This document shows, in pieces, positions 5,563 through 50,517 of a stretch of DNA of 64,000 nucleotides. Where the stretch lies: the NCBI GenBank assembly GCA_036265385.1, contig DATAPD010000046.1, positions 27,059 to 91,058 of the forward strand. The letters are read 5' to 3'. Position 1 is the first letter of the stretch, and each line of letters opens with the position of its first letter. A model generated the notes under the pieces. It did no database searches and was not told where the DNA came from. It saw only the letters and a list, made by a program, of their open reading frames with translations. The translations under genes and the position numbers were made by a program. Source of the stretch: Terriglobales bacterium. Lineage in GTDB: Bacteria; Acidobacteriota; Terriglobia; Terriglobales; Acidobacteriaceae.

Positions 5563-5566
5563 AGAA

Positions 5567-5601: not shown

Positions 5602-5689
5602 GAGTGTCGCGGCGTGTAAAACAAAGTTCCTTCCGGTCCTCGTATTGATGTAAGAGGCTGTTGGCGAAAAGGCAGCCAAGTGCTGACAG

Positions 5690-23343: not shown

Positions 23344-24261
23344 TCAGGCGGCTTTCATCTCATCTTCCAAGGTGCGTTTCTTTGCTTCGAACTCTCTTGC
23401 TTTCCTGTCTTCGTTCTCGATTACCCAATTCACTTCCGCACCAATCAAAAAGGCGTATCCCGTGTTGTAAAGCCACAACATTAGGATTACGACGGCTCCG
23501 ACCGAGCCGTATGTCGCGCTGTAACTATTGAAGAAGTGGAGGTAGATGCGGAAGGCGACGGATGCAAGTAGCCAGAGCAAGACGCCGGCCGCACTTCCTG
23601 GAGTGACCCAATACCATTTTCTTTCTTTCAGCGAAGGTCCAAAGTAATACACGATCGAGAAAGCCAGGAACATGGCGCCGAACGTAATCGGCCACTGCAG
23701 AATCTTCCAAACGACACGAAAGACGCTACCGGCGCCGATGTAGTTGAAGACAACTTCGCCGATTTTGCCTCCGTACAATGCGAGCACCAGCGCGAAGATG
23801 ATGAGAGCTGAAAGTGCCAAAGTTAGGCTGATGATGGTTACTTTTTGCTTCCACCACGGTCGACCTTCGTTGATTTCGTAAATTTTATTTAGAGAAACAA
23901 TGACTGCGCTCATGCCTCCGGAGGCCGCCCATAATGCTCCCAGGATTCCCGCAGCAAGCTTCACACCGCTGCTGGCTCGGAATGTTTGTTCGACGACGTT
24001 GCGAACCAGGTCAGCGGCTGAACCCGGTGCGAGGCGTCCCAGGGCAGCCATGATTCTGAACTGAAGCACAGAGTGTGGACCAGCGATCACGCCAATCAGG
24101 GACAAAAGGAAAAGAATGAGGGGGAACAGCGCAAGCAGAAAATAATAGGAGAGCGAGGCGGAACGGGTTGGCAGTTCATCTTCGCGATGTTTTTGCGCGG
24201 CGAGGCGGATAAGCGCGAGCGGAGTGAGCTGCCCGAATTTCCATAGAGATGTCATCGCCAC
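23344..24261 (-). CDS. YihY/BrkB (virulence factor BrkB) family membrane protein
   Basis: …SASLSYYFLLALFPLILFLLSL… and six TM segments. The ATG at 24255 is an alternative to the GTG at 24261. Confidence 0.8.
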   Translation of the reverse strand: MAMTSLWKFGQLTPLALIRLAAQKHREDELPTRSASLSYYFLLALFPLILFLLSLIGVIAGPHSVLQFRIMAALGRLAPGSAADLVRNVVEQTFRASSGVKLAAGILGALWAASGGMSAVIVSLNKIYEINEGRPWWKQKVTIISLTLALSALIIFALVLALYGGKIGEVVFNYIGAGSVFRVVWKILQWPITFGAMFLAFSIVYYFGPSLKERKWYWVTPGSAAGVLLWLLASVAFRIYLHFFNSYSATYGSVGAVVILMLWLYNTGYAFLIGAEVNWVIENEDRKAREFEAKKRTLEDEMKAA

Positions 24262-24675: not shown

Positions 24676-24702
24676 AGAGTGCTCCGGTTTGTGTAATTGA
24701 AA

Positions 24703-24924
24703 TTAGTCGCGCGTGAAGATACCGGCGAAAGCGAACCCAGAGGCAAGCCCCAACAACCCGGCTATGCCCGCGACAATCGGAAAGTGCTCGCGGGCTTGAT
24801 TGCTGAAACTCAGTTTGTCGCGAGTCTCGTGAACTTTCTCGCGAAGATCCGAGGCTGTCTTATGAAGCTGCTTCCGCTGCTCAATCGCTTTGAGTTGGAG
24901 ATTGTCTATCTGCGGAGTGCTCAT
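24703..24924 (-). CDS. Small tail-anchored coiled-coil protein (YqjK-like position)
   Basis: Start at MSTPQ, overlapping the upstream stop (ATGA). It has an N-terminal coiled coil and a C-terminal TM (IVAGIAGLLGLASGFAFAGIF). Confidence 0.4.
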   Translation of the reverse strand: MSTPQIDNLQLKAIEQRKQLHKTASDLREKVHETRDKLSFSNQAREHFPIVAGIAGLLGLASGFAFAGIFTRD

Positions 24925-25346: not shown

Positions 25347-25665
25347 GGTTGGATCTCCATACACGGATTAGAGCTCCAAGTACAAAAGCTGCCCCGGCAG
25401 TGATGGCCACTAACTTCATCGGATCGTCAGCCCGCATGCGTTCAAACTCATCGGACAGGCCTTCCGCCCAAAAGCGCACCTTCGCGATTCCTGATGAGAG
25501 GGAATAGCCAGCACGCTGGGCGATACTCTGGCCATCCGATGCAGAGGTTTCTATGGGAACCATTTGTAGGCTTTCCGTCACGACAACGATTTCGGGCTCC
25601 GAGGTGATTTGGCTCGGGTCGTTCACATTAGGGTCGGGATTCAACGGCTCAGCTCGTTGAGCCAT
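25339..25665 (-). CDS. DUF883 (ElaB/YqjD-like) tail-anchored protein
   Basis: Start at MAQRAEP with AAGGAG upstream. The C-terminus …RADDPMKLVAITAGAAFVLGALIRVWR resembles the ElaB/YqjD C-terminal anchor. Confidence 0.5.
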   Translation of the reverse strand: MAQRAEPLNPDPNVNDPSQITSEPEIVVVTESLQMVPIETSASDGQSIAQRAGYSLSSGIAKVRFWAEGLSDEFERMRADDPMKLVAITAGAAFVLGALIRVWRSNHE

Positions 25666-25790
25666 AGGCACGCTCCTTGACTGCTGCCTTTCTGATGAAA
25701 ACGGATCGCGCTGGGTGGGATCAAAAGGCAGAAAGATTCGTAAGCAGGTTTTCGGCAAATCGTGTTTGCCCCGGTTCTGGTAAATCTGGG

Positions 25791-27635
25791 CTACTTCATG
25801 AGGGCATCCAGAGTCTTCTCTGCCTGCTGATGAAGATCGGGGGGAGCTCCATAGAGGACTTTTGCTGAGTTGCCGGACTGATCGAAAAGAAACAAGGTAG
25901 GGACCGAGGTGATGTCGCCGAAGGCTTGGGCGGTATGGGCATCGGTGATGGCCCAGCGCAATTCGGGGCTGAGCGCTGCAGCGGTTAAGCGAATCTTGTC
26001 CTCGGGAGATTCAACAGCCAGGGCCACCACTGCCAGGTTGTCGCCATACTTCTTCTTCAAGTCGCCCAGCCATTGCAGAGTGGAGCGGCATGGCGGACAC
26101 CACGTAGCCCAAAATTCGACGAGCACAACCCGTCCGGCCAGCTGGTCGCTGGTTAGCGGTTTACCCGAGAGGTCGGTAACTTTGAAAGCCGGAAGTTTGG
26201 TCAACTCGCCGGTTGCTGCAGGTTTGTGCTCACTCGCAACGACGTCTTTTTTGCCGGCGAGGATCAGGTCGATCATCCTGATGAGATCTGCTTTGAATTT
26301 CGCCTGATTGTCAGCATTGCGCCAAGGCGCGTATCGACCAGCGCCTTCGACTTCGCCGAAGTAGCCAAACTCCCGCGGTGCTGCCACGAGAACGTCGTCA
26401 ACAAAAATGGCTGGGTACCCCTTCACGCCAAACTGTTCTGCCAGTTTGGAAGCACCGAAATTTTCGCTGACGAAGGTGACTTGACCGGGGTATTGTGCGG
26501 CAACTTCTTGGACCAGCAAACTTGCTGGATCAGAAATGTTTCAAGTGTAGGGCCATCGAACTAGAGTGAGGGTGACGGTTTTGCCTGATATGTGGTCGAC
26601 GTGGCGGGCAGGTTTTTGAGCCGCAAGATAAGCAGGCAACACCTGCTCAACTATCACCTGTGCGGCCTTCCATTCATCAGGAGTGGGAGCCGAACCGTCG
26701 TTGTGTGCGATATAAGACGATGCACGTTCGAGAAATAGTTGAGCGATCGAGTCGTCCTGCTCCGAGGATGCAGTTTTGTTGAGTTGGCTTTCTATTTCCA
26801 ACTTGAGTTTGGACTGTTCAGTTTGCTCTGGTACGGCAGTGTCCAGCATGCCGTACTGCCGTGTTGCCTCGAGATACTGGTACAGACTTCCGGCATAAAA
26901 CTTTTGGGAATCGAGTTCCTGCGCGAGTTTGAGCGCCGAGTTCAACGCGATGAAGCGAGGATGCAATTCAATTGACTTCGGTGGACGAAACGCATCGTTC
27001 GTTTTTTGTTGAAGCTTCTGCAATTCGGGAAGGTAGGACCGAAGTTCAAAGCCAGATGGTTTCGAGTCGGGATGAACCTCGGAGCAAAACTTGGCGAACT
27101 CTGCTTCGCCCTGGGCTTGGCCCACATAGAACAGGCCTTCCTGTGGTTTGGTAGCGGTAGCAAAGCCCCTTCCACCATCAAGAAGAGGAATCGATCGACC
27201 CTGCGCCGCTTCCGCCAACGCGCGCCATGCAATGGGCACGTTGCTCCATGTTTTCTTGCGCGCTTCCTGATCGTAGGCAGTGAGTTGAAGGCTGGTCTTG
27301 TTCCATTCCGCTTCGAAAGCGGGCAAGCTGTCTCCAATCGCAGCCGATTTCTCGTCGATTGTCCGGCCGCCTGAAAGCAGATCCTCTGCCTGAGCCAATT
27401 CCTCCATTGCGAGATAAAGATGTCCAGACTTCAGGGAGTCTTTCGCCCCCTTCAAGCTATCGGAGACCATCTCGTTGACGGCTGAAAAATCCTTCGACGT
27501 GATCGGTTTGTCTTTCAGAGAGCGTTCCAGTCGATCGATCTCCGCCTGAATTTGAGAGGAAGGCGTTTGGGCGAGGGCGATGAACGCACACAAAACAAGA
27601 GCAGACAGCAATAAGACAGTGCGGCAGTTTCTCAT
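25791..27635 (-). CDS. Secreted multidomain protein read through an in-frame TGA (26541-26543): unknown N-domain, thioredoxin fold with U-x-x-S, and TlpA-like CPPC domain (putative selenoprotein)
   Basis: Track ORFs 26541..27647 and 25791..26519 are in the same frame, separated only by TGA plus 7 sense codons. The Trx fold is split by the TGA: beta1 (TVTLTLV) lies before it; alpha1, beta2 and the cis-Pro (GYPAIFV) lie after it. The signal peptide is MRNCRTVLLLSALVLCAFIALAQ. CPPC is at 26088-26099. Confidence 0.6.
26504..26536 (-). promoter_or_regulatory. SECIS-like stem-loop downstream of TGA 26541-26543
   Basis: mRNA: UGA-AACA-UUUCU-GAU-CCAGCA-AGUU-UGCUGG-UCCA-AGAAG. The 6-bp upper stem starts 12 nt after the UGA and the apical loop AGUU contains GU. 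There is a 5-bp lower stem. Confidence 0.5.
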
Positions 27636-27689
27636 GCGGAGCTCCACAGCATAGACGCAGGTGCTGCCCCGAGGTGAGCTCTGTGCAGA

Positions 27690-28415
27690 CTAATGAACTC
27701 GCTGGATTGCGGCTTCCAGTTCGGCTGGCTTGAACCCGAACGGGCCGGGCTTGCTCTTGTACGCGACTCGCCCTTGGGTATCGACGAGATAGAGCCGATC
27801 CGGCCATCCTGTATAAGCGCTTTCTGTCACGTTGTTGAATTCGTCGATCACTGCGGGAATCTTAATTCCGAGTCGATTTATGCATGTGCCGGCGAGGGAG
27901 ACACGCTCAGCGTCATCTCGCGGGCTGGCAAAAACCAGATTCTCTTTCACATTGTTCTCTGTTTGCCAAACATCGCTCGGATGAGCTTCCAGGATGTAGA
28001 CGATCAGGAATGCGATATGATCGCCGTACTTTTGATAAAGGCTGTTTAAGGCGGGAACCTCCCGTCGGAACGGCGGTCAGGTGTAGCTGCCAAAGACCAG
28101 CACGACTGGTTGCTTCGAGGCGAGGGCGCTCAGTTGAACGTGCGCGCTCTTGTCGAGCTTTGGTAAATCGAAATCGGTAGCGGGGTCACCGACGCGAAGC
28201 TGTCCGGCACGAGCTTGAGTCCACAATGTCTCAAAGGGCAGGATCAAGAAGACGGCGTCGGGCATGTGGGACATGACTCGGCCAAAAGTCTCGGGTGGCT
28301 GATGCATAGCCCAGACGATGAGTCCAGCAAAAGCGATATACAACATCAGCACAAGCGCTAGCCCGCGCCGTAGCCATTTTTTGGTGGAAATGCTCAACCC
28401 CATGTGAGGCAGCAT
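27690..28415 (-). CDS. Iodothyronine deiodinase-family protein with in-frame TGA (28077-28079) at the catalytic Sec position; N-terminal membrane anchor
   Basis: Track ORFs 28077..28415 and 27690..27950 are in one frame. My manual translation across the gap has no other stop. It reads …VVLVFGSYT-TGA-PPFRREVPALNSLYQKYGDHIAFLIVYILEAHPSDVW…PDRLYLVDTQGRVAYKSKPGPFGF…. This matches the vertebrate DIO motifs FGSCTUPxF, FLVIYIEEAHxSDGW and PERLYI..G.I.YKG..GP. Confidence 0.8.
28050..28066 (-). promoter_or_regulatory. SECIS-like hairpin downstream of TGA 28077-28079
   Basis: mRNA: UGA-CCGCCGUUCC-G-A-CGGGA-GGU-UCCCG-C-C. The 5-bp stem (plus a G-C pair beyond one A.C mismatch) starts 10-12 nt after the UGA. 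The apical loop is GGU. Confidence 0.5.
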
Positions 28416-28476
28416 AGTACCTGCACATGGGGTGTGTGATCTCTAGTGTTTTTCGACTAGGGCTTGATGAACTCAC

Positions 28477-29460
28477 TTAATAGATTGAGCCACCCGCCTG
28501 GGTCGAACTCAGCACGCCCGCATTCGCGGAGACGCTATAGCTGGTTCCGTTGCGGCCAGTCCAACGACCAAGATCGAAGGTGCCGCTCGAGTTGATGCGA
28601 TAGACGCCAACATTCGTATAGGTCAGAGGAGTCTTGGGAGCGCAAACCTCCGGTGCACCTGGTGCCTGCAGAAAATAAGCGGTGCTGCTACCAACCACGG
28701 AAAGAGTTCCAGTGGGCTCGATCAGAAGCGCTGTTTTCTCATCGACTGATATCCCGCGTGGCGCAGTTGACCAACCGTTCGTGTAAATACGGCAGAGGAA
28801 AGCAAGGTCACGCCCCATGCGGTCCCGTGTAACGAAGTGCGGATCCCCGATGACACCTTGCAATGCGCTGACATTTGCAAAATCACGCGCCAACGTGATG
28901 TATCTGTTGAAGGGATCGGCGAGCGACTGACTCGAGGTCGCTCCCTGGCTCGCCAAGGCTGAATAGACAAACTGCGTCAACACATTCATGCCGGCGCTGG
29001 TGCCGCCAACAGGAACGCCGCGCGCGATGGCGTCATTGAGATTGCTCTGGACAGGGGTTCCAGTCCAATAGTTGATGTAGTTCGACTGATCGCCGCCGGC
29101 AATCCAGATTGCCTCCGCGTTGCGGATGGTTGCCGCTACGAAGGGATCGTTCGCAGCTGCGTTGTTTGGAATTATCAGAGTCGCGACGGAGTTCTCGCTC
29201 GGGCAGAGCTGTTGGATGTAGGGATTGTAAGCGTCCGTGCCGGTCGCACGGATCACTAGGAAGTCCCCATTGCCGCTGCGGCCACACATCCACTGAAAAG
29301 CGGCATCGACGTCGGTGCCACCGCCCATCAGAACAGTTCCGGCTGAGGTCGTCGTGGTCACATCATTGGCATTTCCAACCCGGAAATAAGAATACTGTTT
29401 GGCAGCCCAAAGCTGGGTTACGGAGCAAAAGAACAGAGCGAGCATTGCGAACCGTTTCAT
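28477..29460 (-). CDS. Secreted peptidase S51 (cyanophycinase-like) family protein
   Basis: Start at MKRFAMLALFFCSVTQLWA with GGAGG upstream. Motifs include …AIWIAGGDQSNY…, …VGGTSAGMNVL… (Ser nucleophile context) and …GISVDEKTALLIE…. Confidence 0.7.
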   Translation of the reverse strand: MKRFAMLALFFCSVTQLWAAKQYSYFRVGNANDVTTTTSAGTVLMGGGTDVDAAFQWMCGRSGNGDFLVIRATGTDAYNPYIQQLCPSENSVATLIIPNNAAANDPFVAATIRNAEAIWIAGGDQSNYINYWTGTPVQSNLNDAIARGVPVGGTSAGMNVLTQFVYSALASQGATSSQSLADPFNRYITLARDFANVSALQGVIGDPHFVTRDRMGRDLAFLCRIYTNGWSTAPRGISVDEKTALLIEPTGTLSVVGSSTAYFLQAPGAPEVCAPKTPLTYTNVGVYRINSSGTFDLGRWTGRNGTSYSVSANAGVLSSTQAGGSIY

Positions 29461-29583
29461 CGAAGCCTCCGGCAAAGGCCGCTATGATAGCCGTGTTTCG
29501 CCGAACGGCGCAATCAGCAAGGGCCTGAATAAGAAGAAAACTCGGGGTCATCCGCTACAATAGCCGCGCTCGCAGGAGGGAAA

Positions 29584-31053
29584 ATGCGCCTGAATTCTCG
29601 TCTTATCGTTTTGACACTTTGTCTCACCGCTGTTCTTGCTCATGCACAGACTCCAGCCAAGCTCTCGGATGAAGTTAAGAAATACGTGCGTGTGCAGACG
29701 CCGAAGTTTGTGTTGACGCACATCCGCGTCATCGACGGGAAAGGTGGCGCAGCACTCGATGACCAAAATGTGACAGTCGAAAACGGCAAGATCGTCTCGG
29801 TTGAGAAGGGCGCCGACGTTGCAGCACCTGAAGGATCAACGGTTCTGGATTTGCGAGGTTACACCGTCATGCCCGGCATTGTAGGCATGCACAATCACTT
29901 GTTTTATATCGCCCGTCCAAACGAAGACGCACAGTGGCATTCGGAGGAACCCCTTCTTGTTCCACAGATGACGTTTTCCGCACCCCGCCTTTACCTAGCA
30001 GCGGGCGTGACTACGATGCGAACGACTGGGAGCGTAGAAACCTACTCGGATCTGAACTTGAGGGACTTAATCGACAAGGGAGAACTGGTTGGTCCGCACC
30101 TGGACGTGACCGGTCCCTACCTGGAAGGCGCTGATAGTTATTTCATTCAGATGCACCATCTCAGCAGTCCGGAGGAAGCGAAGCAGTTTGTAGATTACTG
30201 GGTGGATCGCGGCGTGACGTCTTTCAAAGCCTACATGAACATCTCGCGCGCGGAGTTGAAAGCCGCGATCGACGAAGCGCATAAGCGCGGTGTGAAGGTG
30301 ACTGGCCATCTGTGCGCGGTGACGTACCCAGAAGCTGCAGAACTTGGCATCGACGATCTAGAACATGGCTTCTTCGTGAATACGCAGTTAGATCCGGACA
30401 AGAAACCGGATAGCTGCTCTGAGGGCGCGGGTACGCCAACACTTGAGAAGATGGATCCGGCCGGCTCTGATGCCAAAGCGCTCATCGATACACTCGTGAA
30501 ACATCACGTCGCGGTCACATCAACGCTTCCGGTTTTTGAAAGTGGAATACCGGGGCGACCCCCGCTGCGCCCGGAGATGCTCGGAGCAATGAGTCCGCCA
30601 GCGCGAGAAGCCTATCTCTACAATCGCGAACGTCCATCTCGACTCAAGCCTTCGAAAAATGATTGGGCGGCGCTGTTGAAACGCGACATGCAACTCGAGC
30701 GCGCGTTCGTTGCTGCGGGCGGATTGCTCATCGCGGGGCCGGATCCCACTGGCAATGGAGGCGTTGTCCCTGGTTTTGGAGATCAGCGCGAAATCGAGTT
30801 GCTCGTCGAAGCTGGGTTTACGCCAACGGAAGCTATCAAAATTGCGACCCTGAACGGTGCAACGTACATGGGCAAGGATAAGCAGATTGGCTCCATTGAT
30901 GTGGGCAAAAACGCCGACCTGGTCGTGATGAAGGGCGATCCATCGAAGAACATTTCAGATATCGAAAATGTTGAAATCGTTTTCAAAGATGGCGTTGGAT
31001 ACGATTCGAAGAAACTGATGGAATCCGTGCGAGGGCGGTACGGACAGTACTGA
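29584..31053 (+). CDS. Secreted amidohydrolase family protein (metal-dependent hydrolase)
   Basis: Signal peptide, then …VMPGIVGMHNHLFY… (HxH metal motif). The C-terminus …GSIDVGKNADLVVMKGDP… is typical of the amidohydrolase superfamily. Confidence 0.85.
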   Translation: MRLNSRLIVLTLCLTAVLAHAQTPAKLSDEVKKYVRVQTPKFVLTHIRVIDGKGGAALDDQNVTVENGKIVSVEKGADVAAPEGSTVLDLRGYTVMPGIVGMHNHLFYIARPNEDAQWHSEEPLLVPQMTFSAPRLYLAAGVTTMRTTGSVETYSDLNLRDLIDKGELVGPHLDVTGPYLEGADSYFIQMHHLSSPEEAKQFVDYWVDRGVTSFKAYMNISRAELKAAIDEAHKRGVKVTGHLCAVTYPEAAELGIDDLEHGFFVNTQLDPDKKPDSCSEGAGTPTLEKMDPAGSDAKALIDTLVKHHVAVTSTLPVFESGIPGRPPLRPEMLGAMSPPAREAYLYNRERPSRLKPSKNDWAALLKRDMQLERAFVAAGGLLIAGPDPTGNGGVVPGFGDQREIELLVEAGFTPTEAIKIATLNGATYMGKDKQIGSIDVGKNADLVVMKGDPSKNISDIENVEIVFKDGVGYDSKKLMESVRGRYGQY

Positions 31054-43693: not shown

Positions 43694-44079
43694 TAGAGAA
43701 ATTGCAAGGGGCAATTAAAAAATCTGAACATCTGCCGAAGAGAGGGAGAACCACCGGTGCGCATTCCACGCAACCAATCCAGAATTGGACCTCGGGTCTT
43801 TGCTCGTGACCTTCAACTTGATCATCACTCTGTGTCCCGCATCGTGTTCACTTAAGTTGCAACTTACTGCAGAACACACCTCCGTATCCTTTTGTTTCCA
43901 CGCCGCGTAAGCCTCAAGCCTGCTTGCCCGTTTGCCGAAATCGCTTCTCCTCGCGCTTTGGCAGACGTTCTGCAATAAAGGATTCGCCTCCCCAAGTTTC
44001 CTTGTCCCCGAAGGTGCCAGCCAGTCCGATCTGTGGCTGGGTTGAAGCGTTCTGCTCAATCTTCCTCCCCGGAGATCCG

Positions 44080-47000
44080 ATGACCGCATTCAAGCGCTTT
44101 TTCATGGCGTCATTGCTCGTTGTGTGCTGTGTTTTCGCACTGACTGCTTCCGTTCCGAATGTGCCGTCCGGCACCTGGCAAGCATGGGGGGACATGAGCG
44201 TGGCCCGGCAAGGCGCCGCCACGGTTCGGCTACAAGATGGAAGACTGCTAATTGTTGGCGGGTCTGATGCGAATGGTCCGCTCGCGAGCGTAGAAATCTT
44301 CGGAAATGATGGCACCTTCAGCAATGCGCAGCCGATGCACGCAGCGCGTACGGGTCATGCCGCGACCATGCTGACGGATGGGCGAGTGCTAGTCAGCGGC
44401 GGTGCCAGCAGCGGTGGCAATGTGACGAATGCCACCGAGATTTACGATCCCGCTTCGGATTCATGGACTGTCGTTGGCGGCGGGATGGTTGATGCGCGCG
44501 CGGGTCACACGGCGAGCTTGCTGTTGGATGGACGAGTCTTCGTCGCTGGAGGACGCGATTCCTCCGGCAACGCACTTTCCAGCACAGAGATTTTCGATCC
44601 GATCATGCAAGGCTTTATCCCCAGCGCGACGATGGGTTCGCCGCGAACGAACCACGCGGCCGCCATGCTGGGCGATGGACGCGTGTTTCTAATTGGAGGT
44701 AGTGATGGCGCAAACACATTGAACTCCGTGGACATTTTTGATCCCGTTGCCGGAACGGTTGCCCCTGGACCAGCTCTGTCTACTCCTCGGTCAGCGGCCA
44801 CTGCCACGACCACATTGGATGGCAAGGTCGTTGTAATCGGCGGCAACAATGAATCCGGAGACCTAGCTTCCATTGAAATCTTCGATCCTTTCGTTGGGAC
44901 GTTTGCGCTTTCATCTGCGAGCCTCACAGCCCCTCGTTCGGGCCACAGGGCTTTCCTGCTACCGAACAACAACGGTGTGCTGATTGTTGGAGGAACATCT
45001 GCAGGAACCGACTTGAGTAGCGCGGACCTTTACCAAACATGGAACGATACCGCGCAAGCGACAGGTGCGATGGCGGGGGCGCGTTCAGGACTGAGCGGAA
45101 GTGCGCTGAACACGGATGGATTACTACTAGCGTTTGGCGGAACTAACGCATCGACAGAGCTGTACGGATTCCCGACGGTGAAAACTGACCAGACGGATTA
45201 CCCTCCGGGAACCCCGGTGACGATCACAGGCAGCGGTTGGCAGCCCGGCGAAACAGTTACCTTGACCTTGGCCGAGTCACCCGATCTGGACACCCATCCG
45301 GTGATGACTGCGGTAGCGGATGCGAATGGTCACATTGTTAATGCCGATTTCGCGCCCGATTTGCATGATCTCGATATCCGGTTCTACCTGACAGCGGTCG
45401 GGAGTGTTTCCGGCCGACAGGCGCAGAACACATTTACTGACGCGAACCGGCAGATCAACATCACCGGGTTCAGTATCAACTCGCCTTCGGGTGCTACCGA
45501 CAACACGATGAACGTGTCGCAGCAGTTCAATGTTCATTTGGTTTACAACGTTTCGGGTGGAAGCTGGACCAATGTCGGGCCAGTGTTGACCGTGCCCACC
45601 GGGTGGAGCAAGAGTGCGGATCCGGCGACCCAGAGTATCTCCAACACAACCAACCGTACCGCGGATTGGACCGTAACTCCGCCTTCAAGCCCAGGCAGCG
45701 GGGCGATTTCGGTTTCTGTGAACGGTACAGTTGCGAATCCCGATAACTGCAACCAATGTCCCGCGACGGGCAGTTTCAATGCGACGGCGGTAAACCCAGC
45801 CTCTCTGAGTATCTCCAGCATGACTGCAGCGAAAACTGTCGGTGGTGGAACGACGGCGAAAACCGGCGATGCAATCACCGTGACAATGGTGGTGGCGAAT
45901 GCTGCAGCGCCGCGCGCGACCGCGAACTCCGTCGCACCCTCATTATTGACGGTGAATGCCTCCGGTGCCACTGGAACGTGCTCTGCGAGTGGAACTGCAG
46001 CCGGGACCATCGCAGCGGGCGGGAATCGAACTTACACGTACAGCTGCACAGTCACGGGCGGCAATGGCACATTGAGCTTCACTGGTTCGGCGGCGGGCAC
46101 CGACGAAAACAGTTTGGCGGCTGTAAGTTCAGGCAGCGCTACAACCAATTCCATCACAATCGACAACGTTGTTCCTGCTCCGCCATCAACGCCCGATCTG
46201 GATCCTGCGAGCGACAGCGGGGCGTTGAACAACGATGACATCACGAACGTTCAGAAGCCCAAGTTCAACGGAACAGCGGAACCGGGCGCGACCATCACCC
46301 TGCTTGTCGATGGAACAGCGAATGGCACAGCTGTTACGGATGGCTCCGGGAATTGGTCGGTAACAGCAGCCAATAACATTACAGATGGCCAGCATTCGAT
46401 CACCGCAACGGCGACGGATGCCGCAAACAACGTTTCGTCGCCCTCGGGGGCGTTAAGCGTCAAGATTGACACGGTCGCGAATCCACCGTCGGCGCCAGAT
46501 CTCGATCCAGCAAGCGACAGCGGCGCACTGAACACGGATAACATCACGAACGTCACGACCCCGAAATTCAACGGCACAGCGGAGCCGAATGCTTCGGTGG
46601 AAGTCTTCCGTGGAGGTTCGACATCTCTCGGAACAACAACCGCCGATAACTCAGGAAACTGGAGTTTGACGGTTGCTTCAGCCTTAGCAGACAACATCTA
46701 CAGCATCACTGCGAAGCAGACCGATGTGGCTGGGAATATTTCGAATGCATCTGGAGCGCTCAGCCTAACTATCGATACAGTGCCGCCGAGTGCCCCATCA
46801 TCGCCAAACCTCAGTTCGAGTGACGACACTGGGATTCTGAACAACGACAACATCACGAATAAAACCAGCAATCTCAATTTCACGGGTTCAGCCGATCCGA
46901 ACATAACCGTGTCTCTGTTTGAGGGCGCAACGCAACTAGGCACAACCACTGCGAACAACGGGTCAGGGAATTGGACCATCGTTGCTCCAGGGCCATTTGC

Positions 47001-50000
47001 GCCTGGGACTCACGTCTTCATTGCGAAAGCGACAGACGTGGCCGGAAATACGAGCACATCAGTTCCGCATACCGTGGTGATTGATACGACCTCCCCAACG
47101 GTCACGATCAACCAGGCCGTGGGACAAGCGGATCCGGCGGTAACAGGCCCCATCAACTTCACTGTTGTATTCAGCGAAGCCGTCACTAATTTCGCGACAG
47201 GGGATGTCACTCTGAGCGGAACGGCCGGCGCGACGACCGCCGTTGTTACCGGCAGCGGAACAACTTATAACGTCAGTGTGAGCGGTATGACGTCATCCGG
47301 CACGGTGATTGCTTCGATCAACGCTGGTGTTGCGACAGACACCGCTGGTAACGGCAACACTGCTTCCACCAGCACTGACAACACTGTGACCTACAACCCC
47401 GACAGTAAAGCACCAATCGTTACGATCAGTTTCGGAGCGCCTGATGGACAAAATGGCTGGTTTGTTCATTCCCCTGTTGCGGGAACTGTCACGGCAAATG
47501 ACACGACAACTGGCAACAGCAATGTCACCGCGATCAGCTGCACGGATGGAGTGAACGCGCTTGCCGTCGGATCTCTTGCCGGAATCGGAACACCGAGCGC
47601 GAGCGGCTCGATCTCTGTTTCTGGCGACGCGACGCATAGCATTTCGTGCGCGGCTACTGACAGTGCGGGAAATACGGGGGCATTTACCGGCTCAACCGTG
47701 ATGCCGGTTGTAGTGAAAATTGATACTCAGGCACCAACTGGCGTAACAGGAAGTGCGGCACGCGCAACTGACCACAACGGTTGGTACAACGCGTCAGTTG
47801 GGATCACCTTCAACGGCACCGATTCCACATCTGATATTGCAAGCTGTACGAGCACCACTTACACAGGGCCCGATTCTGCAACTGCATCGGTGCTCGGACA
47901 TTGCACGGACAATGCTGGCAACACAAGTGCTGATGTAGCTTTCAATTTCAAATTTGATGCGACAGCGCCGACCGGCGTAGCTCTTTCTGTTACAGCTGGA
48001 ACAATGGGAACGAATGGCTGGTACACGAGCGACGTGACTGTGCACACTTCCGGAACGGAAGCTGTCAGCGGTCCCCCAATTTGCACTGCAGATCAGATTC
48101 AGTCGGCGGAGACAATGGGCCAAGTCTTCAATGGGTCTTGCACGAATGATGCGGGATTGTCGGCGAATGCGGCTGCACTGACGGTCAAGCTGGACAAGAC
48201 GCCGCCCTCTGCAAGTCTGGCTGTTTTTGCAGGAACGCTTGGTAATGCCGGCTGGTACATAAGTGATGTAACGGTTCGCGCGTCTGGCTCCGACTCGATC
48301 GCCTCACCTGTAACGTGTACTGCGGATCAATTCCTCACGACAGACAGCACGGGCCATACGTTCGGTGGTTCGTGCACCAACGATGCTGGTCTCACGGCGA
48401 ATGCCACAGATCTAACTGTCAAGCTCGACAAGACAGCGCCTACAGTCCAGATCACACCTTCGCGATCGGCCGATCACAACGGCTGGTACAACCATGGGCT
48501 GTCGTTCACGAATCCTGGAACAGACTCGACATCTGGAATTGCCAGCTGCACGACCCCCGCTGCGTATTCCGCTCCAGACAATGCCAATGCCGTTGTCACT
48601 GCGACCTGTACAGATAACGCGGGGAACGTGGGCAATGGCTCGTTTAACCTCCAGTACGATTCGACTCCTCCTACGAACGTCTCGGGAGCGCCGAATCGTG
48701 CCGCCGATCACAACGGTTGGTACAACCACGCAGTGGATGTCGTGTTCTCTGGGCTGGATGCGACCTCGGGAATCGAGGCTTGCACAAGCACAAACTACAG
48801 TGGACCGGACAGCGTGAGTGCATCAGCCAACGGCCACTGCACTGATAATGCCGGCAACAGTAGCGCTGACGCTGCATCTCCGGCGTTCAAATTTGATTCG
48901 ACTCCGCCGACGGCGACGTCAGTCGTATCCGCGGGTACAGCCGGGACGAATGGTTGGTACACGAGCAACGTGACCGTTCATACGAGCGGCACAGACAACA
49001 TCAGCACTCCGGTGGCGTGCGATGCGGACCAGGTGATTAGTACGGAGACCGCGGGCATCCCAGTGAGTGGCAATTGCACGAACGATGCGGGCTTGTCGGC
49101 TGTGTCGACCGCGATCACCGTGAAGTTGGATAAGACGCCGCCCACAAATGTCTTGCTGACAGCAACAGGCACTGTTGGACTGAACAGTTGGTACACCAGC
49201 GACGTCAGCATCAAGACGACTGGGCAAGAGTCGATCAGCACGCCGCTGGTTTGCACGGCGGATCAAAGTCAAACTACAGATACGATCGGTCAGGCCTTCC
49301 ACGGTTCTTGTACAAACGATGCCGGATTGGCTGCAAACGCGACGGATCTCACGATCAAGCGCGACGCGACTCCTCCGGTTCTCACAGTAACGTTCACGCC
49401 GGATGCCCCAGATGGAAATAATGGCTGGTGGAAGACGCCGGGTGGAGTTCCGTATAACTGGACGTGCAGCGATGTTACGTCTGGAGTTGACGGTTCTTAC
49501 GCCGGTGGATGTCCGACTCCTGCCAGCGGCACGACAACAGCAAACGGGACCACGCACTTTGGTGGACAAATCCGAGATCAGGCAGGGAACTTGAGTGTCA
49601 TGGTTTCGCGCGACCTGAAATTGGACAACGTTGCGCCGGTCGTTACGTGGAATTCGGCAGGTGACACGTGCTCATTGCCGGGCAACTCCGGATGGTGCCG
49701 TGGAACTGAAACGGCAGCATTCACAGCGAGCGATGCGACGTCTGGCCTCGCCAATCTTGCTCAAGCGTCGTTCACGCAATCGACTGGAACGAATGGTGGG
49801 TCCGTTTCGATTGCATCGGGCAGCGTGACCGATCAGGCTGGCAACACCAACTCTGGTGTGAACGCGGGGCCGTACAAGATTGATAGTGTTGCTCCCACAA
49901 TCACGATTAACAATCCGGCGAATGGGTCGAACTTCCTGCTGAACGCTGCCATTCCGGCGAATTACAGTTGCAATGACTCGACGTCCGGAGTCTCGAACTG

Positions 50001-50517
50001 TGCCGGCCCGGTGACGAATGGATCGAATTTCAGCACCAGTCCGGTGGGATCACACACGTTCACGGTGAATGCCACTGACGTGGCGGGTAATCCAGCCACG
50101 CCGGTTAGCTACAACTACAGCGTGCTTTACGCTTCCGGTGGAATGTGTCTCGGCTCACCAGGGCACGCAATCCTGCAACCGATCAACATGGATGGGACCA
50201 GTGTGTTCAAACTGGGCAGCACAGTGCCAACGAAGTTCCGAGTGTGCGATGCCAATGGAGTTTCCATCGGAACCTCGAATGTTGTGGCGCAGTACGGTCT
50301 GACCTCGGCTGCGAACACTCCCAATATCACGGTGGCTGAAGACATTTACTCAACCACTCCAGACACTGCGTTCCGTTGGGACCCGACTGATCAGCAGTGG
50401 ATCTTCAACCAGAGCACCAAGAACAACTCGACGATGAATGCCAAGGGAGTGACATACTTGCTGGCTATCAAATTGAATGATGGCTCATTCATCTACTTCC
50501 AGTACGGTTTGAAATAA
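44080..50517 (+). CDS. Giant (2145 aa) secreted Kelch beta-propeller plus multi-Ig-like repeat surface protein
   Basis: Start at MTAFKRFFMASLLVVCCVFALTAS with GGAG upstream. Six to seven Kelch-like blades carry DGR(V/L)(L/F)(V/I)xGG (aa 35-365). Three DLDPASDSGxLNxDxITN Ig-like modules span aa 700-1005. About 9-10 NGWY/Cys-containing modules span aa 1115-1850. Further Ig-like domains follow. Confidence 0.8.
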   Translation: MTAFKRFFMASLLVVCCVFALTASVPNVPSGTWQAWGDMSVARQGAATVRLQDGRLLIVGGSDANGPLASVEIFGNDGTFSNAQPMHAARTGHAATMLTDGRVLVSGGASSGGNVTNATEIYDPASDSWTVVGGGMVDARAGHTASLLLDGRVFVAGGRDSSGNALSSTEIFDPIMQGFIPSATMGSPRTNHAAAMLGDGRVFLIGGSDGANTLNSVDIFDPVAGTVAPGPALSTPRSAATATTTLDGKVVVIGGNNESGDLASIEIFDPFVGTFALSSASLTAPRSGHRAFLLPNNNGVLIVGGTSAGTDLSSADLYQTWNDTAQATGAMAGARSGLSGSALNTDGLLLAFGGTNASTELYGFPTVKTDQTDYPPGTPVTITGSGWQPGETVTLTLAESPDLDTHPVMTAVADANGHIVNADFAPDLHDLDIRFYLTAVGSVSGRQAQNTFTDANRQINITGFSINSPSGATDNTMNVSQQFNVHLVYNVSGGSWTNVGPVLTVPTGWSKSADPATQSISNTTNRTADWTVTPPSSPGSGAISVSVNGTVANPDNCNQCPATGSFNATAVNPASLSISSMTAAKTVGGGTTAKTGDAITVTMVVANAAAPRATANSVAPSLLTVNASGATGTCSASGTAAGTIAAGGNRTYTYSCTVTGGNGTLSFTGSAAGTDENSLAAVSSGSATTNSITIDNVVPAPPSTPDLDPASDSGALNNDDITNVQKPKFNGTAEPGATITLLVDGTANGTAVTDGSGNWSVTAANNITDGQHSITATATDAANNVSSPSGALSVKIDTVANPPSAPDLDPASDSGALNTDNITNVTTPKFNGTAEPNASVEVFRGGSTSLGTTTADNSGNWSLTVASALADNIYSITAKQTDVAGNISNASGALSLTIDTVPPSAPSSPNLSSSDDTGILNNDNITNKTSNLNFTGSADPNITVSLFEGATQLGTTTANNGSGNWTIVAPGPFAPGTHVFIAKATDVAGNTSTSVPHTVVIDTTSPTVTINQAVGQADPAVTGPINFTVVFSEAVTNFATGDVTLSGTAGATTAVVTGSGTTYNVSVSGMTSSGTVIASINAGVATDTAGNGNTASTSTDNTVTYNPDSKAPIVTISFGAPDGQNGWFVHSPVAGTVTANDTTTGNSNVTAISCTDGVNALAVGSLAGIGTPSASGSISVSGDATHSISCAATDSAGNTGAFTGSTVMPVVVKIDTQAPTGVTGSAARATDHNGWYNASVGITFNGTDSTSDIASCTSTTYTGPDSATASVLGHCTDNAGNTSADVAFNFKFDATAPTGVALSVTAGTMGTNGWYTSDVTVHTSGTEAVSGPPICTADQIQSAETMGQVFNGSCTNDAGLSANAAALTVKLDKTPPSASLAVFAGTLGNAGWYISDVTVRASGSDSIASPVTCTADQFLTTDSTGHTFGGSCTNDAGLTANATDLTVKLDKTAPTVQITPSRSADHNGWYNHGLSFTNPGTDSTSGIASCTTPAAYSAPDNANAVVTATCTDNAGNVGNGSFNLQYDSTPPTNVSGAPNRAADHNGWYNHAVDVVFSGLDATSGIEACTSTNYSGPDSVSASANGHCTDNAGNSSADAASPAFKFDSTPPTATSVVSAGTAGTNGWYTSNVTVHTSGTDNISTPVACDADQVISTETAGIPVSGNCTNDAGLSAVSTAITVKLDKTPPTNVLLTATGTVGLNSWYTSDVSIKTTGQESISTPLVCTADQSQTTDTIGQAFHGSCTNDAGLAANATDLTIKRDATPPVLTVTFTPDAPDGNNGWWKTPGGVPYNWTCSDVTSGVDGSYAGGCPTPASGTTTANGTTHFGGQIRDQAGNLSVMVSRDLKLDNVAPVVTWNSAGDTCSLPGNSGWCRGTETAAFTASDATSGLANLAQASFTQSTGTNGGSVSIASGSVTDQAGNTNSGVNAGPYKIDSVAPTITINNPANGSNFLLNAAIPANYSCNDSTSGVSNCAGPVTNGSNFSTSPVGSHTFTVNATDVAGNPATPVSYNYSVLYASGGMCLGSPGHAILQPINMDGTSVFKLGSTVPTKFRVCDANGVSIGTSNVVAQYGLTSAANTPNITVAEDIYSTTPDTAFRWDPTDQQWIFNQSTKNNSTMNAKGVTYLLAIKLNDGSFIYFQYGLK

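What the first reader, a model, noticed from the sequence alone, without database searches (positions are those of the whole stretch)
27690..28415. Deiodinase-family gene with an in-frame TGA exactly at the catalytic selenocysteine position
The ORF track splits this locus into 28077..28415 and 27690..27950. I translated the gap by hand. It is one frame with a single TGA (28077-28079) and no other stop.

The junction reads VVLVFGSYT-[TGA]-PPFRRE. This reproduces the iodothyronine deiodinase active-site motif FGS(C/A)T-U-P(P/S)F, where U is Sec in vertebrate DIO1-3.

Downstream blocks also track the vertebrate enzymes:
- FLIVYILEAHPSDVW
- PDRLYLVDTQGRVAYKSKPGPFGF

A hairpin, CGGGA-GGU-UCCCG, begins 10-12 nt after the UGA (28050-28066) and has GU in its apical loop. 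This is the geometry known for the E. coli fdhF SECIS: the upper stem-loop lies about 11 nt from the UGA, loop G/U bases are needed for SelB binding, and there is a bulge or mismatch below.

An N-terminal signal anchor (RRGLALVLMLYIAFAGLIVWAM) suggests the enzyme is anchored in the envelope.
Basis: partly seen in the sequence, partly recalled or inferred. Interest (0 to 1): 0.8.

Follow-up and report, generated by a model that had tools for sequence, protein, structure and literature searches.

The report
Bacterial deiodinase-like selenoprotein gene
A soil acidobacterium carries a membrane-anchored relative of the animal thyroid-hormone deiodinases whose catalytic residue is almost certainly selenocysteine, written as a TGA "stop" codon; the call is very well supported, but bacterial genes of this kind have been known from metagenomes since 2005.

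Summary
Window 27690..28415 (- strand) is one 241-codon frame with a single TGA (28077-28079, codon 113) in VVLVFGSYT-TGA-PPFRRE.

The protein belongs to Pfam T4_deiodinase (E=6e-30). The TGA aligns with the catalytic Sec of mouse Dio3 and Dio2.

The TGA is not an error. Three independent assemblies are 99.98-100% identical across it, and about 155 diverged relatives (45-70% identity, Acidobacteriota/Terriglobales) keep TGA at this codon. More distant relatives have Cys there.

Downstream codons +4 to +9 lose nearly all synonymous variation. They form a hairpin (nt +14 to +31, loop A-GGU-U) that meets the published bacterial SECIS constraints and shows G:C to C:G covariation.

TGA ends 12 of 30 long ORFs in the window, so the genetic code is not reassigned. 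The next gene downstream (25791..27647) is a second TGA/Cys-pair gene with its own conserved hairpin.

Not shown: selA, selB, selC and selD (none in the 64 kb window; the rest of the genome is out of reach), selenium incorporation, substrate and membrane topology.

The bacterial "deiodinase-like protein" selenoprotein family was described in 2005 and is listed in 2022 and 2026 reviews. This is a new member of a known kind.

The parts
27690..28415 (-). Deiodinase-family selenoprotein gene: 241 codons plus TAG. The start is ATG at 28415, or possibly ATG at 28403 (Met5).
   Evidence: Single frame. Pfam PF00837 E=6e-30. PDB Dio3 E=1e-20 and Dio2 E=3e-19. JGI gene calls in identical contigs start at either Met1 or Met5.
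28077..28079 (-). In-frame TGA, codon 113: proposed selenocysteine codon.
   Evidence: Aligns with the catalytic Sec (Cys in the crystallised mutants) of mouse Dio3 and Dio2. TGA in 80 of 80 genome loci and 75 of 83 metagenome loci. Cys in 31 of the best 120 database relatives.
28049..28066 (-). SECIS-like hairpin, nt +14 to +31 counted from the U of UGA. Pairs: 14-31, 15-30, 16-28, 17-27, 18-26, 19-25 and (20-24). Loop A-GGU-U; nt 29 bulged. In the window, 15:30 is an A.C mismatch and 14-31 is G.U. The core stem-loop is 28052-28064.
   Evidence: Synonymous entropy is near zero at codons +4 to +7 and reduced at +8 and +9. 98.2% of cells are paired, and there is G:C/C:G/G.U/U:A covariation at 15:30. 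Energies: -6.6 kcal/mol alone, -8.9 in context, -13.3 for the consensus.
28305..28364 (-). N-terminal transmembrane anchor, residues 18-37 (GLALVLMLYIAFAGLIVWAM).
   Evidence: Mean hydropathy 2.36, conserved in all 35 aligned relatives. The AlphaFold model of the 71%-identical homologue has a helix at residues 2-27.
27696..28205 (-). Catalytic thioredoxin-fold/deiodinase domain, residues 71-240.
   Evidence: PF00837 match covers 71-240 of the protein and 71-236 of 237 profile positions. Foldseek top hits are 9h48 (Dio2) and 4tr3 (Dio3).
27966..27989 (-). E143-A-H145-P-S-D-V-W150: edge of the deiodinase-specific insertion (loop-D), which in Dio enzymes holds the Glu/His of the proposed proton relay and the stacking Trp.
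   Evidence: Aligned to EAHPSDGW of Dio3 and Dio2. E143 and W150 are invariant and H145 nearly invariant in 35 relatives. Residue roles are from PMC11592359.
27882..27884 (-). Cys178, nearly invariant in the bacterial family: candidate resolving thiol (inference only).
   Evidence: At least 90% conserved in alignment A1. It does not align with the distal Cys of Dio3 or Dio2.
25791..27647 (-). Neighbouring gene, 42 nt downstream on the same strand: a second candidate selenoprotein (618 codons). It has a signal peptide, an all-alpha domain, a divergent Trx-like domain carrying the TGA, and a TlpA/ResA-like Trx domain with WCPPC. It counts here as independent evidence that this organism decodes UGA as Sec.
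   Evidence: One frame with a single TGA. 116 of 118 short homologues end at ...RWPYT, and two full-length homologues have Cys there. L170 and L171 keep the TGA, the frame and the hairpin. The C-terminal domain is Redoxin/Trx.
26541..26543 (-). In-frame TGA of the neighbouring gene (context TLVRWPYT-U-NISDPASLL).
26513..26528 (-). Hairpin CCAGCA-AGUU-UGCUGG, 12 nt after the second TGA.
   Evidence: -9.5 kcal/mol alone and -13.6 in context. Conserved in L170 and L171, with a compensatory change in the lower stem.

Best explanation
Window 27690..28415 (- strand) encodes one 241-residue, N-terminally membrane-anchored enzyme of the iodothyronine-deiodinase family (a thioredoxin/peroxiredoxin-like fold). 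Its catalytic residue 113 is selenocysteine.

How the UGA is decoded (inferred from established bacterial Sec biology). When the ribosome reaches UGA113, the mRNA hairpin 10 nt downstream (nt +14 to +31, apical A-GGU-U loop) recruits SelB.GTP.Sec-tRNASec. Sec is inserted instead of translation terminating.

What the enzyme does (inferred). The selenolate sits at the N-end of helix alpha1. It is flanked by Ser110 and Thr112 and backed by Tyr140, Glu143, His145 and Trp150, the residues proposed to form the proton relay and loop-D edge in animal deiodinases. I propose it attacks an electrophile, most likely the halogen of a halogenated phenolic compound (reductive dehalogenation). The alternative is a peroxide, as in a peroxiredoxin. 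The oxidised selenium would then be reduced by a thiol, possibly the family-specific Cys178 followed by a Trx-type reductant.

The substrate is not thyroid hormone. The thyronine-contacting residues of Dio3 (His219, Phe258, Arg275) and its distal Cys239 are all replaced.

Status of each step:
- Shown: one frame, family membership, TGA on the Sec column, TGA conserved in about 155 relatives, Cys homologues, a conserved and covarying hairpin, an unreassigned genetic code.
- Inferred: SelB-dependent Sec insertion, the chemistry, the substrate class and the reductant.

My confidence that this is a selenoprotein gene is about 0.9. My confidence that its reaction is a dehalogenation is about 0.4.
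For: Frame and TGA.

Family:
- PF00837 E=6e-30, 104.7 bits against a cutoff of 27.
- Dio3 4tr3 E=1e-20 and Dio2 9h48 E=3e-19, with the TGA on the Sec/Cys column.
- AlphaFold model of the 71%-identical P0001 has pLDDT 94. Its best PDB matches are Dio2 (TM 0.81) and Dio3 (TM 0.78).

TGA is real and conserved:
- L167, L168 and L169, from three separate assemblies, are 100, 100 and 99.98% identical to window 24041-30135 and include the TGA.
- 80 of 80 genome loci (Terriglobia/Terriglobales/Ca. Sulfotelmatobacter MAGs, 57-69% identity) and 75 of 83 metagenome loci have TGA.
- The 49 'W' residues in JGI proteins are TGA in the one locus whose DNA was read (L001).
- Downstream of the TGA, dN/dS is 0.07-0.36 with saturated dS.

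Sec/Cys pair: 31 of the best 120 relatives have Cys. Six Cys-form DNAs do not keep the hairpin codons.

SECIS:
- Codon entropy is 0.26, 0, 0 and 0.53 bits at Arg+4, Arg+5, Glu+6 and Val+7. An Arg at +20 has 2.0 bits and a Glu at +30 has 0.98.
- 98.2% of pair cells are standard pairs. The covariation score is 0.201 against 0.095 in shuffles (0 of 500 reach it) and is far above all slid controls.
- Pair 15:30 reads GC 70, CG 51, GU 17, UA 1. Pair 17:27 reads GC 110, GU 34, AU 3.
- The hairpin fits the published bSECIS model: 3-9 nt loop, upper stem of at least 4 bp, N1-G-[G|U]-N-N2 loop, 16-37 nt from the UGA (PMC13188914).

Code not reassigned: TGA ends 12 of 30 long ORFs in the window.

Independent second Sec/Cys-pair gene with its own hairpin next door.

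Acidobacteria are on record as Sec users: PMC1794560.
Against: - No tRNA-Sec was found in the 64 kb window. selA, selB and selD were absent from the 26 window proteins scanned against Pfam or NCBIfam. The rest of the genome could not be read, so the machinery is unverified.
- The window's own hairpin carries an A.C mismatch (CGA instead of the consensus CGG or CGC). It folds at only -6.6 kcal/mol alone, weaker than the -7.5 of the bSECIS model. It reaches -8.9 only with flanking pairs.
- A 63-nt fold is not more stable than shuffles, z=-0.35.
- No Rfam family matches.
- Acidobacteria also carry unusual allo-tRNAs proposed to act as suppressors (PMC5389517).
- For the function: Dio3 His219, Cys239, Phe258 and Arg275 are not conserved. 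No conserved gene neighbour hints at a pathway. No bacterial member has been characterised biochemically in the literature searched.
Confidence: 0.88

Rival explanations
1. The UGA is read through, but not as selenocysteine. A suppressor tRNA, such as the acidobacterial allo-tRNAs, or near-cognate decoding inserts Ser, Cys or Trp. The hairpin would merely slow the ribosome or stimulate read-through.
For: Allo-tRNAs with suppressor potential were found mainly in Acidobacteria (PMC5389517). No sel genes or tRNA-Sec are visible in the window.
Against: The UGA sits exactly on the catalytic Sec column of a family whose animal members are selenoenzymes. The hairpin has the spacing and the G-G/U loop of bacterial SECIS elements. 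The classic Sec/Cys alternation is seen. TGA is a normal stop for 12 of 30 long ORFs, so a general opal suppressor would be costly. A second gene with the same signature lies next door. Acidobacteria are recorded as having the Sec-decoding trait.
Confidence: 0.05
2. The TGA is a genuine stop. The locus would then be a pseudogene, a sequencing error, or two separate products (a 112-aa membrane peptide and a separate C-terminal protein).
For: Gene callers split the locus this way. 31 of the best 120 database relatives are stand-alone C-terminal fragments.
Against: The sequence is identical in three independent assemblies. TGA is kept at this codon in about 155 relatives that are 45-70% identical, with strong amino-acid conservation and dN/dS of 0.07-0.36 immediately downstream. 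The split falls between strand beta1 and helix alpha1 of one thioredoxin fold. There is no conserved start codon after the TGA. The fragments begin at varying GTG, ATG or TTG positions.
Confidence: 0.02
3. This is a selenoprotein, but functionally a thiol peroxidase or thiol-disulfide oxidoreductase (peroxiredoxin/ResA-like) rather than a dehalogenase.
For: AhpC-TSA and Redoxin models also match. Structural neighbours after Dio2 and Dio3 are ResA, DsbE and Bcp. The discoverers of the bacterial family suggested a general redox role (PMC1088965). Thyronine-binding residues are absent.
Against: The deiodinase-specific insertion and its conserved edge residues (Y140, E143, H145, W150) are retained. 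So is the FGSxT-U-PPF motif, which is identical to that of the animal enzymes. Dio2 and Dio3 are clearly better matches than any Prx or ResA, by sequence (E=1e-20 against 4.5e-06) and by structure.
Confidence: 0.35
4. Genome-wide code change: TGA read as Trp or Gly, as in code 4 or code 25.
For: 49 JGI protein predictions for relatives carry W at this position.
Against: In the one such prediction whose DNA was read (L001), the W is a TGA that the gene caller translated as Trp on a short contig. In the window TGA terminates 12 of 30 long ORFs. All relatives come from Acidobacteriota, which use the standard code.
Confidence: 0.005

Closest known systems
Bacterial 'deiodinase-like protein' selenoprotein family (Zhang, Fomenko & Gladyshev 2005, Sargasso Sea metagenome, PMC1088965; listed under PF00837 in PMC9312934 and PMC13188914)
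   Same: PF00837 domain, an in-frame UGA at the active site, Cys-containing homologues, and a bacterial SECIS hairpin directly downstream with G in the apical loop. Function is unknown and presumed to be redox.
   Different: Those sequences were marine. The reviews give the motif as UxxC, whereas this clade reads U-P-P-F with no Cys at +3. This clade is terrestrial (Acidobacteriota/Terriglobales, at least 585 species-level genome hits), is overwhelmingly in the Sec form, and has an N-terminal transmembrane helix. I could not retrieve the published sequences to measure identity.
Vertebrate iodothyronine deiodinases DIO1-3 (structures 4tr3 and 9h48)
   Same: Fold (TM 0.78-0.81). Single N-terminal transmembrane helix. 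Motif FGS-x-T-U-PPF. Y..E-A-H-P-S-D-x-W at the loop-D edge. About 30-32% identity over the catalytic core.
   Different: The SECIS is a bacterial in-frame hairpin, not a 3'-UTR element. Dio3 His219, Cys239, Phe258 and Arg275 are replaced by Pro, Ile, Pro and Pro. The family has its own Cys178. Thyroid hormone is not expected as the substrate.
NCBIfam NF038285 'deiodinase_rel' (deiodinase family protein)
   Same: Best NCBIfam match: E=1.8e-56, covering residues 74-237.
   Different: The score of 192 bits is below the 250-bit cutoff. Only profile positions 177-340 of 347 are matched, so that family has a much longer N-terminal region.
E. coli fdhF SECIS and the consensus bacterial SECIS model (bSECISearch)
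   Same: A hairpin in the coding sequence about 10 nt after the UGA, a small apical loop containing GGU, and an unpaired nucleotide in the stem. It meets the loop, stem, G-position and spacing constraints.
   Different: There is no sequence homology. The bulge is on the 3' side (nt 29), not the bulged U on the 5' side of fdhF (the fdhF detail is from my own knowledge). The window's copy is weakened by an A.C mismatch.
ResA/TlpA/DsbE thiol-disulfide oxidoreductases and Bcp-type peroxiredoxins
   Same: Thioredoxin-fold core with the redox residue at the N-end of alpha1.
   Different: Much weaker matches. They lack the deiodinase insertion, and they have CxxC or a peroxidatic Cys rather than T-U-P-P-F.

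Membership tests
Pfam PF00837 T4_deiodinase | Whole-protein score above the curated gathering threshold | tested here: met
   104.7 bits against 27, E=6.1e-30, covering profile positions 71-236 of 237.
Iodothyronine deiodinase family | Sec (or Cys) in the active-site motif FGS-x-T-U-P-P/S-F at the N-end of alpha1 | tested here: met
   FGSYT-TGA-PPF aligns column for column with FGSCT(C)PPF of Dio3 and FGSAT(C)PPF of Dio2.
Iodothyronine deiodinase family | Deiodinase-specific insertion (loop-D) with conserved edge residues Tyr, Glu, His and Trp | tested here: met
   Y140, E143, H145 and W150 align with YI(E/D)EAHPSDGW. They are invariant or nearly invariant in 35 relatives. Residue roles are from PMC11592359.
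Iodothyronine deiodinase family | Second His of the proposed proton relay (Dio3 His219 / Dio2 His182) | tested here: not met
   It aligns with Pro of ASPRD.
Iodothyronine deiodinase family | Thyronine-contacting residues (Dio3 Phe258, Arg275) and distal resolving Cys239 | tested here: not met
   They align with Pro205, Pro223 and Ile186. This argues for a different substrate, not against the fold or the chemistry.
Iodothyronine deiodinase family | Three-dimensional fold closest to solved deiodinase cores | tested here: met
   The AlphaFold model of P0001 (71% identical proxy, pLDDT 94) has Foldseek rank 1 = 9h48 Dio2 and rank 2 = 4tr3 Dio3. The window protein itself could not be submitted because of the TGA.
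Iodothyronine deiodinase family | Single N-terminal transmembrane helix | tested here: met
   Residues 18-37, hydropathy 2.36, conserved. The model has a helix at residues 2-27.
Iodothyronine deiodinase family | Reductive deiodination or dehalogenation activity | not testable with these tools
   This needs enzymology. No bacterial member is characterised in the papers found.
NCBIfam NF038285 deiodinase_rel | Score above the curated cutoff | tested here: not met
   192.1 bits against a cutoff of 250; only the C-terminal half of the profile matches.
Bacterial selenoprotein (Sec-UGA gene) | In-frame TGA conserved in orthologues, with coding conservation on both sides | tested here: met
   80 of 80 genome loci and 75 of 83 metagenome loci. 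dN/dS downstream is 0.07-0.36.
Bacterial selenoprotein (Sec-UGA gene) | Cys-containing homologues with Cys aligned to the TGA | tested here: met
   31 of the best 120 relatives. TGC or TGT was confirmed in DNA of six loci.
Bacterial selenoprotein (Sec-UGA gene) | selA, selB, selC (tRNA-Sec) and selD in the same genome | not testable with these tools
Indirect support comes from a second Sec/Cys-pair gene in the window.
Bacterial selenoprotein (Sec-UGA gene) | Selenium actually incorporated at the UGA | not testable with these tools
   Needs 75Se labelling or mass spectrometry.
Consensus bacterial SECIS (PMC13188914, Fig. 2) | Apical loop of 3-9 nt and upper stem of 4-16 bp | tested here: met
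   The loop is GGU (3 nt) or AGGUU (5 nt). The window's upper stem is 4-5 bp and the consensus is 6-7 bp.
Consensus bacterial SECIS (PMC13188914, Fig. 2) | G in the first two loop positions, pattern N1-G-[G|U]-N-N2 | tested here: met
   A-G-G-U-U. G21 and G22 are invariant in 147 unique sequences.
Consensus bacterial SECIS (PMC13188914, Fig. 2) | 16-37 nt between the UGA and the apical loop | tested here: met
   16 or 17 nt, depending on whether A20-U24 is counted as a pair.
Consensus bacterial SECIS (PMC13188914, Fig. 2) | Minimum free energy of -7.5 kcal/mol or lower | tested here: inconclusive
   The window hairpin alone gives -6.6, and -8.9 with 45 nt of context. The family consensus forms give -13.3 and -9.8.
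Consensus bacterial SECIS (PMC13188914, Fig. 2) | Structure maintained by compensatory change | tested here: met
   Pair 15:30 reads GC 70, CG 51, GU 17, UA 1, other 8. Pair 17:27 reads GC 110, GU 34, AU 3. No shuffle out of 500 reaches the observed score. Caveat: the sequences are related, so the number of independent events is smaller than the number of cells.

The most novel reading that the evidence does not exclude
The deiodinase-like selenoenzyme and the adjacent, apparently undescribed WPYT-U-NxS thioredoxin-like/TlpA-fusion selenoprotein form a selenium-based redox pair in the cell envelope of soil Acidobacteria. The pair would strip halogens from natural organohalogens such as halogenated phenolics and humics. 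On this reading, deiodinase-type Sec chemistry is ancient, predates thyroid signalling, and is a widespread unrecognised activity in soils, since at least 585 species-level genomes carry the gene.
Probability: 0.12. Interest if true: 0.7.

Novelty: new member of a known kind. Interest (0 to 1): 0.35.

Why it matters
Three things give the finding some value.

- Annotation. In every public record I looked at, this gene is mis-called. It is split into a 108-112 aa stub plus a spurious antisense ORF (L167-L169), reduced to a C-terminal fragment labelled 'hypothetical protein', or translated with Trp at the Sec site. The family is very common in Terriglobales, so soil selenoproteomes are being undercounted.

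- Biology. The function of bacterial deiodinase homologues has been open since 2005. This clade keeps the animal active-site motif and proton-relay residues but not the thyronine-binding residues. That makes it a clean system for asking what the ancestral reaction of the deiodinase fold was.

- RNA. The SECIS is almost invariant across 147 distinct sequences and has one clearly covarying pair. That makes it a good handle for finding further selenoprotein genes and for SelB-binding studies in Acidobacteria.

None of this overturns current knowledge.

Tried and rejected
- Rfam at gathering thresholds over the whole window, and at E<=10 over 25700-28500, found no SECIS or other relevant family.
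- Single-sequence folding of 63 nt was not more stable than shuffles (z=-0.35). The structure only became convincing through comparative analysis.
- Looked for sel genes and tRNA-Sec in the window: no tRNA at all. Twenty-six window proteins scanned against Pfam or NCBIfam gave transporters, FolD, hydrolases, a sigma factor and so on, but no SelA, SelB or SelD.
- Looked for conserved synteny. The neighbouring selenoprotein gene has no homologue within 3 kb of the deiodinase-like gene in 81 other loci. Clustering of flank ORFs gave no consistent partner; the best was a large upstream protein in 22 loci.
- Tried to gather Cys-form DNA as a control with a Cys-only query alignment. The scan still returned 75 TGA forms and only 6 Cys forms, so the control is small.
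- Positive-inside analysis of the transmembrane flanks was ambiguous (K+R 2.83 against 2.40). I dropped a periplasmic-orientation claim.
- No paralogue of the gene exists in the window.
- Rejected readings: pseudogene or sequencing error, code reassignment, two separate genes (see the rival explanations).
Full report
**1. The observation**

On the - strand, 27690..28415 is a single frame of 241 codons ending in TAG. Its only internal stop is TGA at 28077-28079, which is codon 113. The ORF list splits the locus at that point. The junction reads VVLVFGSYT-TGA-PPFRRE.

**2. Family**

With Cys placed at the TGA, the protein matches Pfam T4_deiodinase (PF00837) at E=6e-30. That is 104.7 bits against a cutoff of 27, covering almost the whole profile. 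AhpC-TSA and Redoxin match much more weakly.

Against solved structures, the best sequence matches are the mouse Dio3 core (4tr3, E=1e-20) and the mouse Dio2 core (9h48, E=3e-19). The TGA falls on the column of the catalytic Sec, which is Cys in the crystallised mutants. FLIVYILEAHPSDVW aligns with FLIIYIEEAHPSDGW.

The best NCBIfam match is NF038285 'deiodinase_rel'. It scores below its cutoff (192 against 250 bits) and matches only the C-terminal half of the profile.

An AlphaFold model of the 71%-identical homologue P0001 has pLDDT 94. Its best PDB matches by Foldseek are Dio2 (TM 0.81) and Dio3 (TM 0.78), ahead of ResA, DsbE and Bcp proteins.

**3. The TGA is real and conserved**

- A protein search returned 365 relatives. 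Among the best 120, the aligned position holds W in 49, C in 31, R in 3, S in 2 and G in 2. Another 31 are 132-158 aa C-terminal fragments that begin just after the TGA.
- The 'W' is an artefact. The DNA of P0001 has TGA there, and the locus does not translate to the database protein under code 11. A homologue on a 1.08 Mb contig also has the TGA in frame.
The best 80 are all Acidobacteriota (Terriglobia, Terriglobales, Ca. Sulfotelmatobacter, Acidobacteriaceae MAGs) at 57-69% identity. All 80 have TGA at this codon.
- A metagenome scan seeded only with Cys-form proteins still returned 75 TGA forms, 6 Cys forms, and none with another residue. The 83 motif matches also count four loci fetched earlier, which add one CGA and one GGA.
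- Three contigs from three separate assemblies are 100, 100 and 99.98% identical to window 24041-30135, and the single mismatch lies away from the TGA. That excludes a sequencing error.
- Downstream of the TGA, dN is about 0.2-0.4. dS is high and often too saturated to compute. Where it is defined, dN/dS is 0.07-0.36. The part after the 'stop' is therefore under purifying selection.

**4. The hairpin**

In 82 codon-aligned TGA loci, synonymous variation collapses just downstream:

| Codon | Usage | Entropy |
|---|---|---|
| Arg+4 | CGG 79 of 82 | 0.26 bit |
| Arg+5 | CGG 79 of 79 | 0 bit |
| Glu+6 | GAG 82 of 82 | 0 bit |
| Val+7 | GTT 70 of 77 | 0.53 bit |
| Pro+8 | only CCC or CCT | reduced |
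| Ala+9 | mostly GCC | reduced |

For comparison, an Arg at +20 has 2.0 bits, a Glu at +30 has 0.98 bit, and typical Val codons have 1.7-1.9 bits.

This stretch forms a hairpin. Counting from the U of UGA, the pairs are 14-31, 15-30, 16-28, 17-27, 18-26, 19-25 and, less reliably, 20-24. The loop is A-GGU-U and nt 29 is bulged.

Across 147 distinct sequences, 98.2% of pair cells are standard pairs. Slid registers give 34-73%, and column shuffles give 91.8%, with none of 500 reaching the observed value. Two pairs vary:

- Pair 15:30 switches between G:C (70), C:G (51), G.U (17) and U:A (1), with 8 mismatches.
- Pair 17:27 is G:C (110), G.U (34) or A:U (3).

The sequences are related, so these counts overstate the number of independent events. 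Even so, the G:C to C:G exchange also appears inside the clade closest to the window (L005), and the bulge nucleotide changes freely (C, A or U) while its neighbours stay paired.

The published consensus for bacterial SECIS elements requires four things (PMC13188914):

- a 3-9 nt loop;
- a 4-16 bp upper stem;
- a G in the first two loop positions, pattern N1-G-[G|U]-N-N2;
- 16-37 nt between the UGA and the loop, and an energy of -7.5 kcal/mol or lower.

The element meets the first three and the spacing rule (16-17 nt). On energy, the family consensus forms fold at -13.3 and -9.8 kcal/mol. The window's copy has CGA at Arg+4, which puts an A.C mismatch at 15:30. It gives -6.6 kcal/mol alone and -8.9 with flanking pairs. 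The same variant occurs in one other species (L036).

The six Cys-form DNAs use CGC, AAG, CAC and similar codons in this stretch and do not keep the hairpin. Rfam has no matching family, and a single-sequence fold is unremarkable. The case for the hairpin rests on the comparative data.

**5. Alternative decodings**

- TGA ends 12 of 30 long ORFs in the window, so there is no code reassignment.
- Acidobacteria do carry unusual allo-tRNAs proposed as suppressors (PMC5389517). I cannot exclude non-Sec read-through outright, because the Sec machinery could not be examined.
- The window has no tRNA gene. None of the 26 window proteins scanned is SelA, SelB or SelD.
- Acidobacteria were recorded as Sec users in 2006 (PMC1794560).
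- The window gives independent indirect evidence in a second TGA gene, described next.

**6. A second TGA gene next door**

The gene 42 nt downstream (25791..27647, - strand) is also a single frame with one TGA, at 26541-26543. The context is TLVRWPYT-TGA-NISDPASLL.

- Of 118 short database homologues, 116 end exactly at ...RWPYT.
- The two full-length homologues (P0123, P0199) read WPYT-C-NLSDPA.
- DNA from two other genomes keeps the TGA, the frame and the hairpin CCAGCA-AGUU-UGCUGG located 12 nt after the UGA. A U:A to C:G change occurs in the lower stem.
- A model of P0199 places the Cys at the N-end of alpha1 of a thioredoxin-type fold (beta1-alpha1-beta2-alpha2-beta3-beta4-alpha3). This domain lies between an all-alpha domain and a TlpA/ResA-like WCPPC domain.
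- No Pfam or NCBIfam model covers the Sec-bearing domain.

**7. Anatomy of the deiodinase-like protein**

Residues 18-37 form a conserved hydrophobic helix. The charge distribution of its flanks is ambiguous, so the enzyme's orientation in the membrane is undetermined.

Conserved with the animal enzymes:
- Ser110, Thr112 and Sec113;
- Tyr140, Glu143, His145 and Trp150.

These are the residues assigned to the proton relay and the loop-D edge in Dio2 and Dio3 (PMC11592359).

Not conserved are Dio3 His219 (Pro here), Cys239 (Ile), Phe258 (Pro) and Arg275 (Pro). Cys178 is nearly invariant within the bacterial family and is a candidate resolving thiol. That last point is inference only.

**8. How it most likely works**

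Decoding: the SECIS hairpin would recruit SelB and Sec-tRNASec to UGA113. This follows from the established bacterial mechanism and was not tested here.

Chemistry: the retained deiodinase-specific elements favour a selenolate attack on a carbon-bound halogen, followed by protonation of the ring. The substrate would be something other than thyroid hormone, most plausibly a halogenated phenolic. I rate this at about 0.4.

The main functional rival is peroxide or disulfide reduction, at about 0.35. The discoverers of the bacterial family proposed only a general redox role (PMC1088965).

Genomic context does not help. No neighbour is conserved across 81 loci. The adjacency to the second selenoprotein is peculiar to this lineage. 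No terminator-like site lies between the two genes, so they may be co-transcribed here.

**9. Comparison with what is known**

Sec- and Cys-containing bacterial 'deiodinase-like proteins' with bacterial SECIS elements were reported from the Sargasso Sea metagenome in 2005 (PMC1088965). They are listed under PF00837 in the 2022 and 2026 reviews of prokaryotic selenoproteins.

This gene is therefore a new member of a known kind. What this analysis adds:
- the family's abundance and near-exclusive Sec usage in soil Terriglobales;
- the U-P-P-F motif, where the reviews list UxxC;
- the very conserved, covarying SECIS;
- the systematic mis-annotation of the gene in public records.

No biochemical characterisation of any bacterial member turned up.

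**10. Verdict**

My confidence that this is a genuine selenoprotein gene of the deiodinase family is about 0.9. Its function is unresolved. Interest is moderate to low (0.35) because the kind is already known. The neighbouring TGA gene may be the more novel item.

Noticed in passing
window 25791..27647 (- strand); TGA at 26541-26543; hairpin at 26513-26528: A second candidate selenoprotein gene lies immediately downstream. It is a 618-codon single frame with WPYT-U-NIS in a divergent thioredoxin-like domain, preceded by a signal peptide and an all-alpha domain and followed by a TlpA/ResA-like WCPPC domain. 116 of 118 short homologues end at ...RWPYT, and two full-length homologues have Cys there. 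The TGA and a hairpin are conserved in two other genomes. No Pfam or NCBIfam model covers the Sec-bearing domain, and I did not find it in the 2026 list of more than 110 families, so it may be an undescribed selenoprotein family.
   Followed up: partly
L001 (632-634) and 48 other JGI protein predictions (P0001-P0055 range): Public protein predictions for relatives carry Trp at the Sec position. In the DNA checked, the codon is TGA. The gene caller evidently applied a TGA=Trp model on short contigs, which hides selenoprotein genes as apparently normal full-length proteins.
   Followed up: yes
L167-L169 (= window 24041-30135), gene calls at locus 1721-2059 and 2087-2443: In public annotations of the same population, the deiodinase-like gene appears as a 108-112 aa stub plus a spurious 118-aa ORF on the opposite strand covering the C-terminal half (the window's own + strand ORF 27693..28049). 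In NCBI a relative's C-terminal half is labelled 'hypothetical protein'.
   Followed up: yes
L085 (CGA) and L086 (GGA) at the Sec codon: Two relatives have Arg (CGA) or Gly (GGA) where the others have TGA. Each is one base away from TGA, and both still carry most of the SECIS hairpin codons. They could be recent loss of Sec giving an inactive or repurposed enzyme, or base-call errors.
   Followed up: partly
window 28064-28066 (codon Arg+4 = CGA): The window's SECIS differs from the family consensus by one synonymous base (CGA instead of CGG or CGC). This creates an A.C mismatch at the covarying pair 15:30 and halves the hairpin's stability (-6.6 against -13.3 kcal/mol). Only one other of 147 sequences (L036) shares it. 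Whether Sec insertion is less efficient here is unknown.
   Followed up: partly
window 43924..50517 (+ strand): A very large ORF of 2197 aa lies about 15 kb from the locus. It was not examined.
   Followed up: no
window 24400-25700 region (from L167 gene calls at locus 4471-5874): Downstream of the two TGA genes there is a run of four small ORFs (73-141 aa). One has a Phage_holin_3_6 domain hit. They lie before a BrkB-family membrane protein gene (23344..24261).
   Followed up: no
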